From Escherichia coli (GTDB taxonomy: Bacteria > Pseudomonadota > Gammaproteobacteria > Enterobacterales > Enterobacteriaceae), in NCBI RefSeq assembly GCF_051903065.1, contig NZ_CP178438.1: a stretch of DNA of 64,000 bases; one strand, 5' to 3'. The position numbers are program-made. Shown piece by piece: positions 3,001 to 18,000 of the stretch. Position 1 is the first letter of the stretch; every line of letters starts with the position of its first letter.

Positions 3001-6000
3001 CAGGAAATACTGGCGCGGCGTCTCGAGCAATCACGCTGATCGGTGTTTCTCCGTTGATCACCATTAACACCGTCTCCGGCGATGACATTATCAGTGGCGC
3101 AGAAAAAGGTGCGCCACTGACCCTTACCGGTAGCACTCAACAGGCTGAGACAGGACAAACCGTCACAGTAACCCTGGCTGGACAGAGTTTTACCACTACC
3201 GTGCAGGCCGATGGCTCCTGGAGTCTGACGGTACCTGCCGCCGCGATGGGAAATCTGCCTGACGGCGCGGTGGCGATTACCGCTTCTGTGACGGATCTCA
3301 GCGGCAATACCGGCAACACTTCCCGCACCATTACCGTCGATAGCCAGGCCCCGGCCTTAAGCATCGATCCACTGACCGCCGATAACATCATCAACGCCGC
3401 CGAAAGCGGGCAGGATCTGCCCATCACCGGCACCACCGACGCTCAGCCGGGGCAGACGGTGACCGTTACGTTAAATGGGCAGACGTATCAGGGCGTCGTG
3501 CAGCCAGACGGCACCTGGAGCGTGACTGTGCCCGCCGCCAACGTGGGCGCACTGGCTGACGGCAACGCTACGGTCACCGCCAGCGTGAACGATGTCGCCG
3601 GTAACCCGACCAGCGTCTCACGCGTGGCGCTGGTCGATGCCACGCCGCCGGTGGTCACCATTAATCCGGTGGCGACCGATAATGTCATTAACACGCCGGA
3701 ACATATCCAGGCGCAAATTATCAGCGGCACGGTCACTGGCGCTCAGGCGGGCGATATCGTCACCGTGACGCTGAATAATGTGGATTACACCACGGTGGTG
3801 GATGGTTCCGGCAACTGGAGTCTGGGCGTTCCGGCCTCGGTGGTCAGTGGGCTGGCGGACGGCAGTTATCCTGTCAGCGTCTCGGTAACCGACAAAGCCG
3901 GAAACACGGGCAGCCAGTCATTGACCGTCACGGTCAATACCGCCGCGCCCCTTATCGGCATTAACAGCATTGCGGGCGATGATGTGATTAACGCCAGCGA
4001 AAAAGGGGCCGATCTCCAGATTACCGGCACCAGCGATCAGCCTGTTAACACCGCCATCACCGTGACGCTGAACGGGCAAAATTACACCACCACGACCGAC
4101 GCCTCCGGCAACTGGAGCGTCACCGTTCCGGCATCGGCGGTAACCGCACTGGGCCAGGCCAACTACACGGTAACGGTGGCGGTGACCAGCAGTATCGGCA
4201 ACAGCGCCACCGCCAGCCATAACGTGCTGGTCGACAGCGCGCTGCCCGGTGTGACCATTAATCCGGTGGCAACCGACGATATTATTAACGCCGCCGAAGC
4301 GGGCGTGGCGCAAACCATCAGCGGGCAGGTGACTGGAGCCGCCGTTGGCGACGCGGTAACCGTGACGCTGGGCGGTAATACCTACACCACCACCGTGCAG
4401 GCCGGCTTAAGCTGGAGCGTGGACGTTCCGGCGGACGCTATTCAGGCGCTGGGTAATGGCGATTTAACGGTTAATGCCTCGGTCACCAATCAAAACGGCA
4501 ACACCGGCAGCGGCACGCGGGATATCACCATCGACGCCAATCTGCCCGGCCTGCGGGTCGATACGGTGGCGGGCGATGATGTGGTCAATATCATCGAGCA
4601 CGGGCAGGCGCTGGTGGTCACCGGCAGCAGCTTGGGGCTTGCTGAAGGCACGCCGCTTACCGTCACGATTAACGATGTGGAATACACCACTGCGGTGCAG
4701 GCCGATGGCAGCTGGAGCGTGGGCATCACGGCGGCGCAGGTTAGCGCCTGGCCTGCGGGGGCGGTTAATATTGCCGTATCCGGGGAAAGTAGCGCCGGAA
4801 ATCCGATAAGCATTACGCATCCGGTAACGGTGGATCTCACTCCGGCGGCGATCACCATCAACACCATCGCCACGGATGACGTGATTAACGCTGCAGAAAA
4901 AGGGGCTAATTTAACTCTTTCCGGCACCACCACTAACGTAGAAGCAGGGCAAACCGTCACTGTCACCTTTGGCGGTAAAAATTACACCGCCAGCGTGGCG
5001 GGCGATGGTAGCTGGACTGCCACCGTTCCCGCCGCCGATCTGGCAGCATTACCAGAGGGCAGCGCCTCCGCGCAGGCCAGCGTCAGCAATATCAACGGCA
5101 ATAGCGCCTCGGCGGTGCACAGCTACAGCGTCGACAGCAGCGCGCCAACCATCATTATCAATACCGTCGCCAGCGACAATATCGTCAACGCCAGCGAAGC
5201 CGATGCGGGTGTGACGGTGAGCGGCAGCACCACCGCTGAAGCGGGGCAGATTGTTACGGTAACGCTCAATAGCCCGACCGTGCAGACGTATCAGGCAACG
5301 GTACAGGCCGACGGCAGCTGGAGCATCAATATTCCGGCGGCAGATCTCGCAGCCTTGACCGATGGCAGCCACACCCTGACGGCGACGGTCAATGACAAAG
5401 CGGGTAACCCGGCGAGCACCACGCATAATCTGGCGGTGGATCTCACCGTTCCGGTACTTACCATCAACACCATTGCGGGCGATGACATTATTAACGCCAC
5501 CGAACACGGGCAGGCGCTGGTGATTTCCGGTTCCAGCACTGGCGGAGAAGCGGGAGATGTCGTCAGCGTCACGCTAAACAATAAAACCTACACCACGACG
5601 CTGGATGCTTCCGGCAACTGGAGCGTCGGCGTTCCGGCGGTGGATGTCACGGCGCTGGGCAGCGGCTCGCAAACTGTTACCGCCACGGTGACTGATGCGG
5701 CGGGTAATAGCGATAACGAGACGCACACGGTTACCGTTAACCTTACCGCGCCGACCATTGGCATCAACACCATCGCCACCGATGACGTGATTAACGCCAC
5801 CGAAAAAGGCGCGGATCTGCAAATTTCCGGCACCAGTAATCAGCCAGCCAATACCGCCATCACCGTGACGCTGAACGGGCAAAATTACACTGCGACGACG
5901 GACGCCGCAGGCAACTGGAGCACCACGGTGCCAGCCTCTGCCGTCGGTGCGCTGGGCGAAGCCAGCTACACGGTGACGGCGAACGTCACCGACAGCGCGG

Positions 6001-15000: not shown

Positions 15001-18000
15001 ATAACGTGCAGGTTAATACCGCGCTGCCGGGCGTCACCATTAATCCGGTGGCAACGGACGATATTATCAACGCTTCAGAGGCAGGCAGCGCGCAAACTAT
15101 CAGCGGCCAGGTAACCGGTGCGGCGGCGGGGAGCACCGTCACCGTTGAACTGGGCGGTAAAACCTACAGCGCCACCGTGCAGCCAGATTTAAGCTGGAGT
15201 GTGAGCGTACCAGCCGCCGACTGGCAGGCGCTGGGTAACGGTGAGTTAACGGTTAACGCCTCGGTAACCAACGCCGTTGGCAACACCGGTAACGGCACGC
15301 GCGATATCACCATCGATGCCAGTCTGCCTGGCCTGCGGGTGGATACCGTCGCGGGTGATGATGTGGTCAATATCATCGAACACAGTCAGGCGCAGGTGAT
15401 CACCGGCAGCAGCTCCGGCTTTGCCGCAGGCACGGCGTTGACGGTGGTGATTAACAACCAAACTTACGCCGCCACGGTGTTGGCGAATGGTACCTGGAGC
15501 GTCGGCGTACCGGCGGCGGATGTCAGTAACTGGCCTGCGGGAACGCTGAATATTACCGTTAGCGGGGCGAACAGTGCCGGAACGCAAACCAGCATTACCC
15601 ATCCGCTGACTGTTGATCTCACCGCCGTCGCCATCAGCATGAACAGCATCACCAGCGATGATGTGATTAACGCCGCCGAAAAAGGCGCGGCGTTAACGCT
15701 CTCCGGCAGCACGTCCGGCGTCGAAGCGGGGCAAACCGTCACCGTCACTTTTGGCGGCAAAACCTACACCTCCACGGTGGCGGCTAACGGTAGCTGGAGC
15801 ACCACCGTTCCGGCTGCGGATTTGGCGGCGCTGCGTGACGGCGATGCCAGCGCCCAGGTGCGGGTGACTAACGTCAACGGCAACAGCGCCACGGCAACGC
15901 ACGAATACAGCGTCGATAGCGCCGCGCCAACGGTCACCATCAACACCATTGCCAGCGATAACATCATCAACGCCAGCGAAGCGGCGGCGGGCGTAACGGT
16001 GTCCGGCACCAGCACGGCGCAAACCGGGCAGACGCTCACCGTCACGCTTAACGGCACTAACTACCAGACCACGGTGCAGGCAGACGGCAGTTGGAGCTTA
16101 ACGCTGCCCGCCAGCGACTTAACCGCACTGGCCAATAACGGCTACACCCTGACCGCTACGGTCAGCGATCTGGCGGGTAACCCTGGCAGCGCCAGCAAAG
16201 GTGTGACCGTCGATACCACCGCGCCGGTGATCAGCTTTAACACCGTGGCGGGCGATGATGTGATTAACAACGTCGAACACACTCAGGCGCAGATTATCAG
16301 CGGCACCGCCACGGGCGCGGTGGCGGGCGACCGCCTGGTAGTGACCATCGCCGGGCAGCAGTATGTCACCAGCACCGATGCCAGCGGCAACTGGAGCGTC
16401 GGCGTGCCTGCCAGCGTGATTTCCGGCCTTGCGGATGGCACGGTGACCATCAGCGCCACCATTACCGATAGCGCAGGCAACAGCAGCACGCAGACGCACA
16501 ACGTACAGGTGAACACGGCGGCAGTGTCGCTCTCGGTTAGCACCATCAGCGGCGATAATATTATTAACGCCGCCGAAGCGGGCAGTGCGCTGACCCTGAG
16601 CGGCACTGGCACTAATTTCGCGACAGGTACAGTGGTGACCGTGTTGCTTAACGGCAAAGGCTACAGCGCCACCATTCAGAGCAACGGGAGCTGGAGCGTG
16701 AACGTATCTGCGGCGGATGTTGCGGCGCTCAGTGATGGCACCAGCTACACGGTCAGCGCCTCCGCTCAGGACAGTGCCGGAAACAGCGCCACGGCCTCGC
16801 GCAGCGTGGCGGTGGATCTCACCGCGCCGGTTATCAGCATTAACACCGTTTCGACGGATGACCGACTCAACGCCGCCGAACAGCAGCAGCCGTTAACCCT
16901 TAACGGCTCGACCAGCGCGGAAGTGGGGCAGACGGTCACCGTGACCTTTGGCGGCAAAACCTATACCGCCACGGTTGCCGCCAATGGTACCTGGGCGCTG
17001 AACGTGCCTGCGGCGGATCTGGCCGCGCTCGGGCAGGGCGCGCAGACCATTACCGCCAGCGTGAACGATCGCGCCGGTAACCCCGGACAGGCCACGCACG
17101 CCCTGACCGTCGATACCGTTGCGCCAACGGTCACCATCGCCACGGTGGCGGGTGACGATATTATCAACAACGCCGAGCAGCTTGCCGGGCAGACCATTAG
17201 CGGCACCACCACCGCCGAAGTGGGTCAGACGGTGACCGTTACCTTTAACGGGCAAACCTGGAGCGCAACGGTCGGCAGCGGCGGAAGCTGGTCGGTGTTT
17301 ATTCCGGCGCAGCAGTTTGCCGGATTAAGCGACGGCAGCTACACCATCAGCGCGTCAGTCACCGATCAGGCCGGAAACCCCGGTAGCGCCAGCCGTGGCG
17401 TGACGTTGAACGGCGACGTGCCCACCGTCACCATCAACACCTTTGCGGGCGACGATGTGGTGAATGCAGCGGAACACGGCTCGTCGCTGGTGATCAGCGG
17501 CACCACCACCGCGCCCGTCGGGCAGACGCTGACCCTGACCTTAAACGGCAAAACCTACACCACCACGGTGCAGACGGGCGGTAGCTGGAGCTACACCCTC
17601 GGCAGCGCCGATGTCACCGCGCTGGCGGACGGCAACGCCTACGTGATTAACGCCTCGGTGAGCAATGCCATTGGCAATACCGGCAGCAGCAATCACACCA
17701 TTACCGTCGATCTCAGCGCCCCGGCGATGGGTATTAATATCGATTCCCTGCAAGCCGACACTGGCCTTAGCGCCAGCGACTTTATCACCAGCGTCAGTCC
17801 GGTGGTGGTCAACGGCTCGCTCACCGCCGCGCTTGCCAGTAACGAGACGGCGCAAATAAGTATCGACGGCGGCACAACCTGGACCACGCTTACCGTTACC
17901 GGCACGACCTGGCGCTATAACGACAGCCGCACGCTGACCGATGGCAACTATCTCTATCAGGTGCGGGTGATTGACGCAGCGGGCAACGTTGGCGCGACCG

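What the first reader, a model, noticed from the sequence alone, without database searches (positions are those of the whole stretch)
3900..16600. 1.8-kb higher-order repeat (six Ig-like domains) iterated about seven times inside the adhesin
Beyond the ~300-bp domain periodicity, a marker motif recurs every 1794-1803 bp at seven positions. By eye the copies are roughly 75-90% identical, and only the first three were compared. The protein therefore grew by duplication of six-domain blocks. Such arrays are hotspots for recombination-driven length variation and for short-read assembly collapse.
Basis: seen in the sequence. Interest (0 to 1): 0.5.

Follow-up and report, generated by a model that had tools for sequence, protein, structure and literature searches.

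The report
Six-domain super-repeat in E. coli adhesin
The stalk of a giant E. coli surface adhesin (SiiEA, O-island 28) is built from seven copies of a 1.8-kb block of six different Ig-like domains; the block is old, keeps the same domain order in at least five other enterobacterial genera, and is much more stable than a typical repeat hotspot.

Summary
ORF 1335..22112 (6925 aa) is the E. coli type-I-secreted RTX adhesin SiiEA, between a TolC-family gene and cueR. It has 52 Ca2+-type Ig-like extender domains of about 100 aa. Domains 7-48 (nt 3960-16535) form seven in-register units of six domain types in the order A-F. Unit lengths are 1803, 1794, 1794, 1800, 1794, 1797 and 1794 nt.

Same-type copies are about 72% identical, against 54-56% at other lags (permutation z = 13). 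Between copies dS is about 1 and dN/dS 0.14-0.30, so the duplications are ancient.

In nine E. coli alleles almost every domain's best match is its positional counterpart (mostly 86-100% nt). About 90% of 955 carrier genomes keep the same D3|E3 junction. One clean one-unit deletion allele occurs in 86 genomes. O157 lacks one domain and carries an internal stop.

Not found in the papers I searched: Pseudocitrobacter, Cedecea, Pluralibacter, Enterobacter and Rahnella orthologs have the same 1.79-1.80-kb period and the same A-F order.

The protein and its function are already described. The super-repeat is a new example of a known mode of repeat growth. Moderate interest.

The parts
1..1232 (+). 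3' part of the TolC-family outer-membrane gene of the type I secretion system (Z0608/tolC28 in O157). Its start lies upstream of the window.
   Evidence: NCBIfam TIGR01844, E 8e-100. Annotated as a 1356-nt TolC-family gene in the near-identical record.
1335..22112 (+). siiEA, the giant RTX adhesin (6925 aa). The ORF is intact in the window.
   Evidence: ORF list. N-terminus matches NF047714 'BapA-related adhesin SiiEA' at 510.8 bits against a cutoff of 425. Annotated siiEA in E. coli genomes.
1335..2024 (+). N-terminal module (aa 1-230) with a BapA prefix-like domain (aa 5-69). A TAAG motif lies at aa 97-100.
   Evidence: NF047714 and NF033677. Sequence read.
2169..3959 (+). Six N-terminal extender domains n1-n6 outside the regular array. 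n4-n6 look like a degenerate D-E-F half-unit.
   Evidence: Domain segmentation. Best type D/E/F at 0.58/0.62/0.60 nt identity. At the 0.40 cutoff n5 and n6 cluster with types E and F.
3960..5762 (+). Super-repeat unit 1 (domains A1-F1), 1803 nt
5763..7556 (+). Super-repeat unit 2 (A2-F2), 1794 nt
   Evidence: AF2 model of this unit: six beta-sandwiches, pLDDT 93.
7557..9350 (+). Super-repeat unit 3 (A3-F3), 1794 nt
9351..11150 (+). Super-repeat unit 4 (A4-F4), 1800 nt. It is the most divergent unit, and A4 is absent from the O157 allele.
11151..12944 (+). Super-repeat unit 5 (A5-F5), 1794 nt
12945..14741 (+). Super-repeat unit 6 (A6-F6), 1797 nt
14742..16535 (+). Super-repeat unit 7 (A7-F7), 1794 nt
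16536..17732 (+). Four C-terminal extender domains c49-c52 outside the array. c51 and c52 have positional counterparts in all six other-genus orthologs, c50 in five and c49 in four.
17733..19637 (+). A second, different Ig-like repeat family of about 106 aa (318-nt period). The end coordinate is approximate. One copy (aa 5613-5718) is missing in O157.
   Evidence: TRF period 318 at 17849-18839. Sequence..
19638..22112 (+). Distal region: FG-GAP/VCBS-like putative ligand-binding part, glycine/aspartate-rich RTX repeats and the type I secretion C-terminal target domain. The start coordinate is approximate.
   Evidence: TIGR03661, E 2e-8. PF13517, PF01839 and PF00353 precomputed on homologs. GGxGxD-like repeats read.
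22116..24277 (+). Type I secretion ABC transporter (LssB type). It is split in the window by a 1-nt deletion in an A-run near 23514.
   Evidence: TIGR03375 profile positions 2-468 and 462-693 fall on two overlapping ORFs. Alignment to an intact allele. PGAP flag 'frameshifted' in a near-identical genome.
24274..25449 (+). HlyD-family membrane fusion protein of the type I secretion system
   Evidence: TIGR01843, E 8e-98

Best explanation
The 12.6-kb array is the central extender (stalk) of SiiEA, the giant adhesin of E. coli O-island 28. SiiEA is exported by a type I secretion system and its stalk domains are of the Ca2+-stiffened kind.

Shown here:
- The stalk is seven tandem copies of a six-domain unit whose members (types A-F) share only 36-50% aa identity with each other.
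- The unit itself, meaning the six types in the order A-F, predates the split of Escherichia, Enterobacter, Cedecea, Pluralibacter and Rahnella.
- A natural allele lacking exactly one unit has a single crossover at the D|E domain boundary.

Inferred:
- Copy number changes by unequal homologous recombination between same-type domains of different units. Different-type domains share too little DNA identity (about 54%) to recombine, so gains and losses come mostly in whole 1.8-kb units and the register tends to preserve itself.
- Within each genus, copies resemble each other more than copies in other genera. So amplification or homogenisation was lineage-specific but slow.
- In E. coli the last round is old, and the array is now nearly frozen.

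Functionally, the array most likely sets the reach of the distal FG-GAP/VCBS-like binding region. This is inferred from homology to the MpIBP RII extender and from published O157 adhesion data.
For: Array structure.

Protein identity and secretion context: NF047714, NF033510 (Ca_tandemer), TIGR03661 and flanking TolC, ABC and HlyD genes. PDB 4P99 (MpIBP RII tetra-tandemer) matches at E 2.6e-52 by sequence and 2.8e-31 by fold; the AF2 model has pLDDT 93. An adhesion and colonisation role is reported for O157 OI-28 (PMC12758282).

Age: dS 1.0-1.1 and dN/dS 0.14-0.30 between same-type copies. Positional orthology among E. coli alleles and at 0.90 aa with Pseudocitrobacter, against 0.68 for unit-shifted comparisons.

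Conservation of the unit: a 1791-1797-nt period in six other-genus orthologs and 1794/3591 nt in Pseudocitrobacter, with the strict order ...ABCDEF... in all seven loci.

Lineage-specific similarity: within-genus same-type identity is 0.67-0.86 (Cedecea 0.56), against 0.52-0.63 between genera. There is no positional orthology between genera.

Mechanism: the 18,975-nt allele lacks exactly E3-D4, and identity switches from unit 3 to unit 4 at the D/E boundary. Exact matches between units are only 17-39 nt and mostly in register.

Stability: 859 of 955 carrier genomes keep the D3|E3 junction, and 86 carry the deletion junction.
Against: Register-breaking alleles exist. O157 lacks the single domain A4, and O139:H1 / ETEC1701 lack about two domains in unit 1. 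So recombination is not strictly in register.

Cedecea shows no excess of within-genus similarity (0.56 against 0.54-0.59), so lineage-specific homogenisation is not universal.

dS near 1 is close to saturation, so the age is only a rough lower bound.

Lineage-specific amplification and concerted evolution cannot be told apart with these data.

Only the last 10 kb of each array outside E. coli was available.

The extender function is inferred from homology, not tested for this protein. In this strain the ABC transporter is frameshifted.
Confidence: 0.85

Rival explanations
1. The six-domain period is itself selected and is not merely a self-perpetuating duplication register. One version is that it matches an integral number of turns of the Ca2+-rigidified rod, so same-type faces line up. 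Another is that keeping neighbouring domains dissimilar prevents inter-domain misfolding when the unfolded chain emerges from the secretion channel.
For: The same six types in the same order persist across at least six genera despite turnover of copies. Type-specific residues are invariant across 34 units from all genera. dN/dS is 0.14-0.30. Neighbouring domains share only 32-57% aa identity, mean 44%. Solved extenders rotate by fixed steps of about 90, 120 or 180 degrees per domain (PMC4083281 and PMC7493085).
Against: MpIBP works with about 120 identical repeats (PMC4083281), so neighbour diversity is not required in this fold family. Related adhesins appear to use a five-domain unit, and published ones use pairs or none (bioRxiv 10.1101/2025.09.30.679566). 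Register-breaking alleles occur in E. coli, and the O139:H1 one is an intact ORF. Homology-dependent recombination alone explains how the order is maintained.
Confidence: 0.25
2. The array is a currently active recombination hotspot undergoing rapid concerted evolution and frequent copy-number change in E. coli.
For: A one-unit deletion allele exists. Several other length variants are seen among nine sampled alleles. Contigs break upstream of the C-terminal region in draft genomes of other genera.
Against: Units are 67-78% identical with dS about 1. Copies have positional orthologs across strains and in Pseudocitrobacter. About 90% of carriers share the same junction, and the deletion junction is >=99% identical in its 86 carriers. 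Exact matches between units are at most 39 nt.
Confidence: 0.05
3. The periodicity is an assembly artefact, such as mis-joined or duplicated repeat blocks.
For: None specific. Giant repeat genes are prone to misassembly in general.
Against: Copies differ by 22-33%, so they cannot be duplicated reads. Full-length matches spanning about 23.0 kb are seen throughout the top half of a spread sample of 959 complete genomes, and 563 cover at least 80% of the query in one place. The same period appears in other genera.
Confidence: 0.01

Closest known systems
E. coli O157:H7 O-island 28 RTX adhesin (Z0609 + Z0615, 'RtxA28/RtxB28'; PGAP name SiiEA)
   Same: Same gene at the same locus (ybaT-TolC-adhesin-ABC-HlyD-cueR). 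aa identity over aligned positions is 97%. An adhesion and colonisation role and RstA/Ca2+ regulation are published (PMC12758282).
   Different: The O157 allele is split by a stop at aa 1462. It lacks domain A4 and one 106-aa C-terminal repeat. My term search of that paper ('repeat', 'tandem', 'Ig-like', 'domains') returned no passage describing a six-domain super-repeat.
MpIBP (Marinomonas primoryensis ice-binding adhesin) region II extender, PDB 4P99
   Same: Same domain family (NF033510 Ca_tandemer; 34% identity; E 2.6e-52). It has the same role as a Ca2+-rigidified stalk in a type-I-secreted RTX adhesin (PMC4083281).
   Different: MpIBP has about 120 identical 104-aa repeats with a period of one domain and 100% DNA identity. 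SiiEA has a six-domain period with 67-78% DNA identity between units and 36-50% aa identity between types.
Extender patterns catalogued in RTX adhesins (bioRxiv 10.1101/2025.09.30.679566)
   Same: That paper describes adjacent near-identical extenders, two dissimilar extenders repeated as a pair, and 'more complex patterns'. It also notes dissimilar extenders at both ends of the region, as seen here.
   Different: The passages returned by my search report no six-domain unit and no cross-genus conservation of a unit. Its 80% identity threshold would score most SiiEA domains as 'dissimilar', since same-type copies average about 72% aa.
Nebulin super-repeats and multi-domain duplication units (Bjorklund et al. 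2006, PMC1553488)
   Same: Domain arrays that expand by several domains at a time, detected by autocorrelation of domain similarity, with a family-typical unit size (seven for nebulin).
   Different: Those are eukaryotic, with an exon structure and a known structural ruler (the actin filament) for nebulin. No such ruler is known for SiiEA.
Salmonella SiiE (SPI-4) and BapA
   Same: Giant type-I-secreted adhesins of Enterobacteriaceae with tens of bacterial Ig domains. The N-terminus of SiiEA carries a BapA prefix-like domain.
   Different: The name suggests SiiE, but no SiiE structure (for example 2YN3) appeared among PDB sequence hits at E <= 0.001. The locus, C-terminal region and domain family differ. 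I did not examine SiiE or BapA for higher-order repeats.

Membership tests
SiiEA (NCBIfam NF047714, BapA-related adhesin SiiEA) | N-terminal 229-aa model scoring above the curated cutoff of 425 bits | tested here: met
   510.8 bits, E 3.7e-154, aa 1-230
SiiEA (NCBIfam NF047714, BapA-related adhesin SiiEA) | Same chromosomal locus as annotated siiEA genes in E. coli (TolC upstream; ABC, HlyD and cueR downstream) | tested here: met
Fibrillar RTX adhesins secreted by type I systems (LapA / MpIBP kind) | C-terminal type I secretion target domain and glycine/aspartate-rich repeats | tested here: met
   TIGR03661, E 2e-8. GGxGxD-like repeats at aa ~6770-6810. PF00353 on homologs.
Fibrillar RTX adhesins secreted by type I systems (LapA / MpIBP kind) | [quoted passage not shown] | tested here: met
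   TIGR03375, TIGR01843 and TIGR01844. The ABC gene is frameshifted in this strain.
Fibrillar RTX adhesins secreted by type I systems (LapA / MpIBP kind) | Central region of tandem Ca2+-binding beta-sandwich extender domains | tested here: met
   NF033510 Ca_tandemer, six stretches per unit, E 2.5e-162. Pfam Big_13. 4P99 match. AF2 gives six beta-sandwiches. Ca2+ binding itself was not tested.
Fibrillar RTX adhesins secreted by type I systems (LapA / MpIBP kind) | N-terminal retention module | tested here: inconclusive
   A BapA prefix-like domain NF033677 is present. Its retention function is not shown.
LapA-type adhesins under LapG/LapD control | Periplasmic protease LapG and c-di-GMP receptor LapD, with a dialanine cleavage site | not tested
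   A TAAG motif is present at aa 97-100. No search for LapG or LapD was run. The annotated neighbours show none.
Salmonella SiiE orthologs | Detectable sequence similarity to SiiE bacterial Ig domains | tested here: not met
   No SiiE chain among PDB sequence hits at E <= 0.001 for a six-domain unit
Higher-order (multi-domain) repeat / super-repeat | Similarity at lag k and its multiples exceeds every other lag, over at least three consecutive units | tested here: met
   Lags 6, 12, 18 and 24 give 0.70-0.73 against 0.54-0.56. Seven units. z = 13.
Higher-order (multi-domain) repeat / super-repeat | Same unit composition and order in orthologs | tested here: met
   ABCDEF order in seven loci from five other genera

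The most novel reading that the evidence does not exclude
The six-type, fixed-order extender unit is a selected structural module of this adhesin lineage rather than a frozen duplication register. It might be a super-helical repeat of the Ca2+-stiffened rod, or a device against misfolding of neighbouring domains during C-to-N secretion. If so, multi-domain super-repeats (six here, apparently five in a paralogous family) would be a general, overlooked design rule of giant RTX adhesins, hidden by the high identity thresholds used to classify extenders.
Probability: 0.2. Interest if true: 0.6.

Novelty: new member of a known kind. Interest (0 to 1): 0.4.

Why it matters
It gives a precise domain map of a colonisation adhesin (52 extenders; 7 units of 6 types) carried by about 18% of complete E. 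coli genomes, including O157.

It shows that the stalk is old and stable, so strain differences in length are few, discrete alleles that can be typed: seven units, six units, and the O157 form.

It shows that the six-domain unit is shared across enterobacterial genera. That turns 'why six?' into a question testable by structure determination and stalk engineering.

It also warns that surveys using an 80% or higher identity cut-off will miss such super-repeats, and that draft assemblies tend to break in these arrays.

Tried and rejected
- Tandem Repeats Finder did not see the array. It found only the 318-nt C-terminal repeat, because its maximum period is 500 and the copies are too divergent.
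- Exact k-mers of 11-16 nt spaced about 1.8 kb in six or more copies: none found. The marker recurs at peptide level instead.
- A three-domain sub-period, suggested by the 897-nt autocorrelation peak, was rejected. Types are roughly equidistant (0.36-0.50 aa), and lag 3 is only marginally above other lags.
- The large protein database returned no hit longer than about 1,600 aa in this search, so it could not give full-length orthologs. I used the genome-contig scan instead.
- Measuring the twist per domain failed. AF2 pTM is 0.50, superposition on 4P99 gives rmsd 11.6 A, and model coordinates are not exposed to scripts.
- Greedy megablast chaining of alleles was confounded by out-of-register matches. 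Domain-wise best hits and a global protein alignment were used instead.
- PADLOC and NCBIfam gave nothing for the 409-aa ORF next to cueR.
- The literature search for 'SiiEA' returned only a 2011 EAEC genomics paper that uses the name.

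
Full report
**What the region is.** The window is E. coli chromosome. A 6-kb query from the 3' end of the ORF through cueR matches 5,424 of 5,426 complete genomes, mostly through the conserved cueR end. The adhesin-containing version is present in about 957-959 genomes. ORF 1335..22112 encodes 6925 aa. It lies between a TolC-family gene and a type I secretion ABC transporter, a HlyD-family adaptor and cueR.

Its first 230 residues match the NCBIfam model for 'BapA-related adhesin SiiEA' at 510.8 bits against a cutoff of 425. The body matches the 'Ca2+-stabilized repeat' model NF033510 and Pfam Big_13. The C-terminus carries a type I secretion target domain.

This is O-island 28 of O157:H7, where the gene is split into Z0609 and Z0615. 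A December 2025 paper reports that the island is needed for epithelial adherence and mouse colonisation, and that it is activated by RstA and Ca2+ (PMC12758282). My term search of that paper returned no passage describing a higher-order repeat.

**Checking the observation.** Base-by-base autocorrelation of the ORF peaks at an offset of 1794 nt (0.444, against a background of 0.308 +/- 0.011). That is higher than the 300-nt monomer peak of 0.407. Local profiles at offsets 1794, 1797 and 1803 reach 0.65-0.85.

I cut the protein into 52 domains of 99-102 aa using the conserved linker motif. Clustering their DNA gives a strict six-type cycle repeated seven times for domains 7-48. Mean nt identity is 0.70-0.73 at lags 6, 12, 18 and 24, and 0.54-0.56 at every other lag. 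Shuffling domain order gives 0.571 +/- 0.012 against 0.722 observed, z = 13.

The array is nt 3960-16535, with unit lengths of 1803, 1794, 1794, 1800, 1794, 1797 and 1794 nt. The peptides LPGLRVD, WPAG and LSWSV each occur exactly seven times at those spacings. The stated identity is not: whole units are 67-78% identical.

The three domains before the array (n4-n6) look like a decayed D-E-F half-unit.

**Age and selection.** Between same-type copies, pS is about 0.55, dS 1.0-1.1, dN 0.15-0.31 and dN/dS 0.14-0.30. From general knowledge, dS of this size is comparable to E. coli-Salmonella divergence. It is near saturation, so I treat it only as 'old'. The six types are roughly equidistant at 0.36-0.50 aa identity, with no convincing three-domain sub-unit. 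Neighbouring domains share on average 44% aa identity.

**Variation among strains.** In nine E. coli alleles fetched from complete genomes, nearly every domain's best DNA match is its positional counterpart in the window, mostly at 86-100%. The copies are therefore orthologous across strains and are not being homogenised.

Gene lengths:

| Allele | Length (nt) |
|---|---|
| Window | 20,778 |
| Two strains (47258, RIVM_C037794) | 18,975 |
| 24A16CRGN010 | 18,978 |
| O139:H1 W13-16 | 19,548 |
| O157:H7 (EDL933, NE 1092-2) | 20,160 |
| GF60 | 20,628 |

- The 18,975-nt allele lacks exactly E3-F3-A4-B4-C4-D4. Its identity profile switches from unit 3 to unit 4 at the D/E domain boundary. That is the signature of unequal homologous recombination between units.
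- This deletion junction is present at >=99% identity in 86 genomes. The window's D3|E3 junction is present at >=90% identity in 859 of about 955 carriers.
- The O157 allele lacks exactly domain A4 and one 106-aa C-terminal repeat, and has a stop at aa 1462.
- The longest exact matches between units are 17-39 nt. From general knowledge this is at or just above the minimum length for efficient RecA-dependent recombination in E. coli.

The array can change by whole units, but it is not a hotspot.

**Other genera.** I built an alignment of the unique C-terminal 925 aa with database relatives and used it to scan one genome per species. Orthologs were recovered with up to 10 kb of upstream DNA:

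| Species | C-terminal identity | Locus |
|---|---|---|
| Pseudocitrobacter faecalis | 90% | L010 |
| Cedecea neteri | 56% | L011 |
| Pluralibacter gergoviae | 55% | L014 |
| Enterobacter sp. MAG | 54% | L016 |
| Enterobacter cloacae | 53% | L017 |
| Enterobacter wuhouensis | 53% | L020 |
| Rahnella bonaserana | 52% | L018 |

Six of the seven have their strongest or second-strongest autocorrelation at 1791-1797 nt; Pseudocitrobacter peaks at 3591 and 1794 nt. Classifying their domains against the E. coli types gives the same cyclic order ...ABCDEF... in every locus. The arrays end in E-F followed by counterparts of c49-c52; Pluralibacter has an extra partial unit before them.

- Same-type identity between genera is 0.52-0.63, against about 0.37-0.44 for different types within a genus. 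The six types therefore predate these genera.
- Within a genus, same-type copies are usually more alike: 0.67-0.86, but 0.56 in Cedecea.
- There is no positional orthology between genera, except with Pseudocitrobacter (0.90 positional against 0.68 shifted).

The simplest reading is an ancestral six-domain unit whose copies have been amplified or homogenised separately, and slowly, in each lineage.

**How it most likely works.** By sequence and predicted fold the domains belong with the MpIBP region II extender (PDB 4P99: E 2.6e-52 by sequence, 2.8e-31 by fold). The AF2 model of unit 2 has pLDDT 93 and six beta-sandwiches. In that family Ca2+ bound at the linkers stiffens the chain into a rod that projects the distal binding region (PMC4083281, PMC7493085). 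I infer the same role here.

The six-domain register can maintain itself without selection. Only same-type domains share enough DNA identity to recombine, so most changes are whole units.

Whether six is also structurally meaningful could not be tested. Solved extenders rotate by about 90, 120 or 180 degrees per domain.

**Comparison with what is known.** Duplication of several domains at a time is a recognised mode of repeat growth; nebulin's seven-domain unit is the classic example (PMC1553488). A 2026 preprint catalogues extender patterns in RTX adhesins, including repeated pairs and 'more complex patterns', using an 80% identity threshold that would miss this array. In the papers I searched I found no description of a six-domain unit in SiiEA or of its conservation across genera.

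The protein and its function are known. The super-repeat is a new, well-defined example of a known kind.

**Verdict.** Observation confirmed. Interpretation partly supported: block duplication yes, hotspot largely no. Interest is moderate (0.4). It comes mainly from the cross-genus conservation of the unit and the testable question of why six.

Noticed in passing
window 22116-24277 (frameshift near 23514): The type I secretion ABC transporter gene is split by a 1-nt deletion in an A-run (AAA to AA) relative to intact alleles. PGAP flags it 'frameshifted' in a near-identical genome. If real, this strain may be unable to export the adhesin. It could also be a homopolymer sequencing error.
   Followed up: partly
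L025, L031, L035, L042 (first 10 kb of each): More distant adhesins with a similar C-terminal region show a strong period of 1566-1584 nt on a monomer of about 309-315 nt, which looks like a five-domain higher-order repeat. They come from Enterobacteriaceae bacterium LSJC7, Paraburkholderia adhaesiva, a second Enterobacter cloacae locus and Pseudomonas citronellolis. Multi-domain units may be common in this protein class.
   Followed up: partly
L010 (Pseudocitrobacter faecalis DSM 27453): The ortholog is about 90% identical in the C-terminal region and has 1:1 positional counterparts of E. coli domains C3-F7 and c49-c52. It is much closer than the Enterobacter or Cedecea orthologs, which may mean horizontal transfer between Escherichia and Pseudocitrobacter.
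   Followed up: no
window 17733-19637 (TRF hit 17849-18839): A second, unrelated repeat family of about 106 aa (318-nt period, about 72% matches) lies between the extender array and the FG-GAP/VCBS-like region. Its copy number varies: O157 lacks aa 5613-5718.
   Followed up: partly
window 1623-1634 (aa 97-100): A TAAG motif lies just after the BapA prefix-like domain. It resembles the dialanine site cut by LapG in LapA-type adhesins. No LapG or LapD gene is annotated near the locus.
   Followed up: no
window 25854-29678, minus strand: The segment between cueR and ybbJ varies among strains. Here it holds a 409-aa ORF with no NCBIfam or PADLOC match and a 600-aa ORF with only weak coiled-coil (SMC/Rad50-like) hits. 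A YadA-like autotransporter is annotated at about this position in a near-identical genome, which also carries an IS903B there.
   Followed up: partly
L012, L016, L019, L021: These draft-genome contigs end at a contig edge 2.6-7.5 kb upstream of the C-terminal match, where the extender array lies. This is consistent with short-read assemblies breaking in the array in genera whose units are more alike.
   Followed up: no
L003 / L005 (O157:H7), gene aa 1462: The O157 allele has an in-frame stop near the end of unit 1 that splits it into Z0609 and Z0615. The downstream product would keep the C-terminal secretion signal but lack the N-terminal module. The published work nevertheless reports adhesion phenotypes for both parts.
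   Followed up: no
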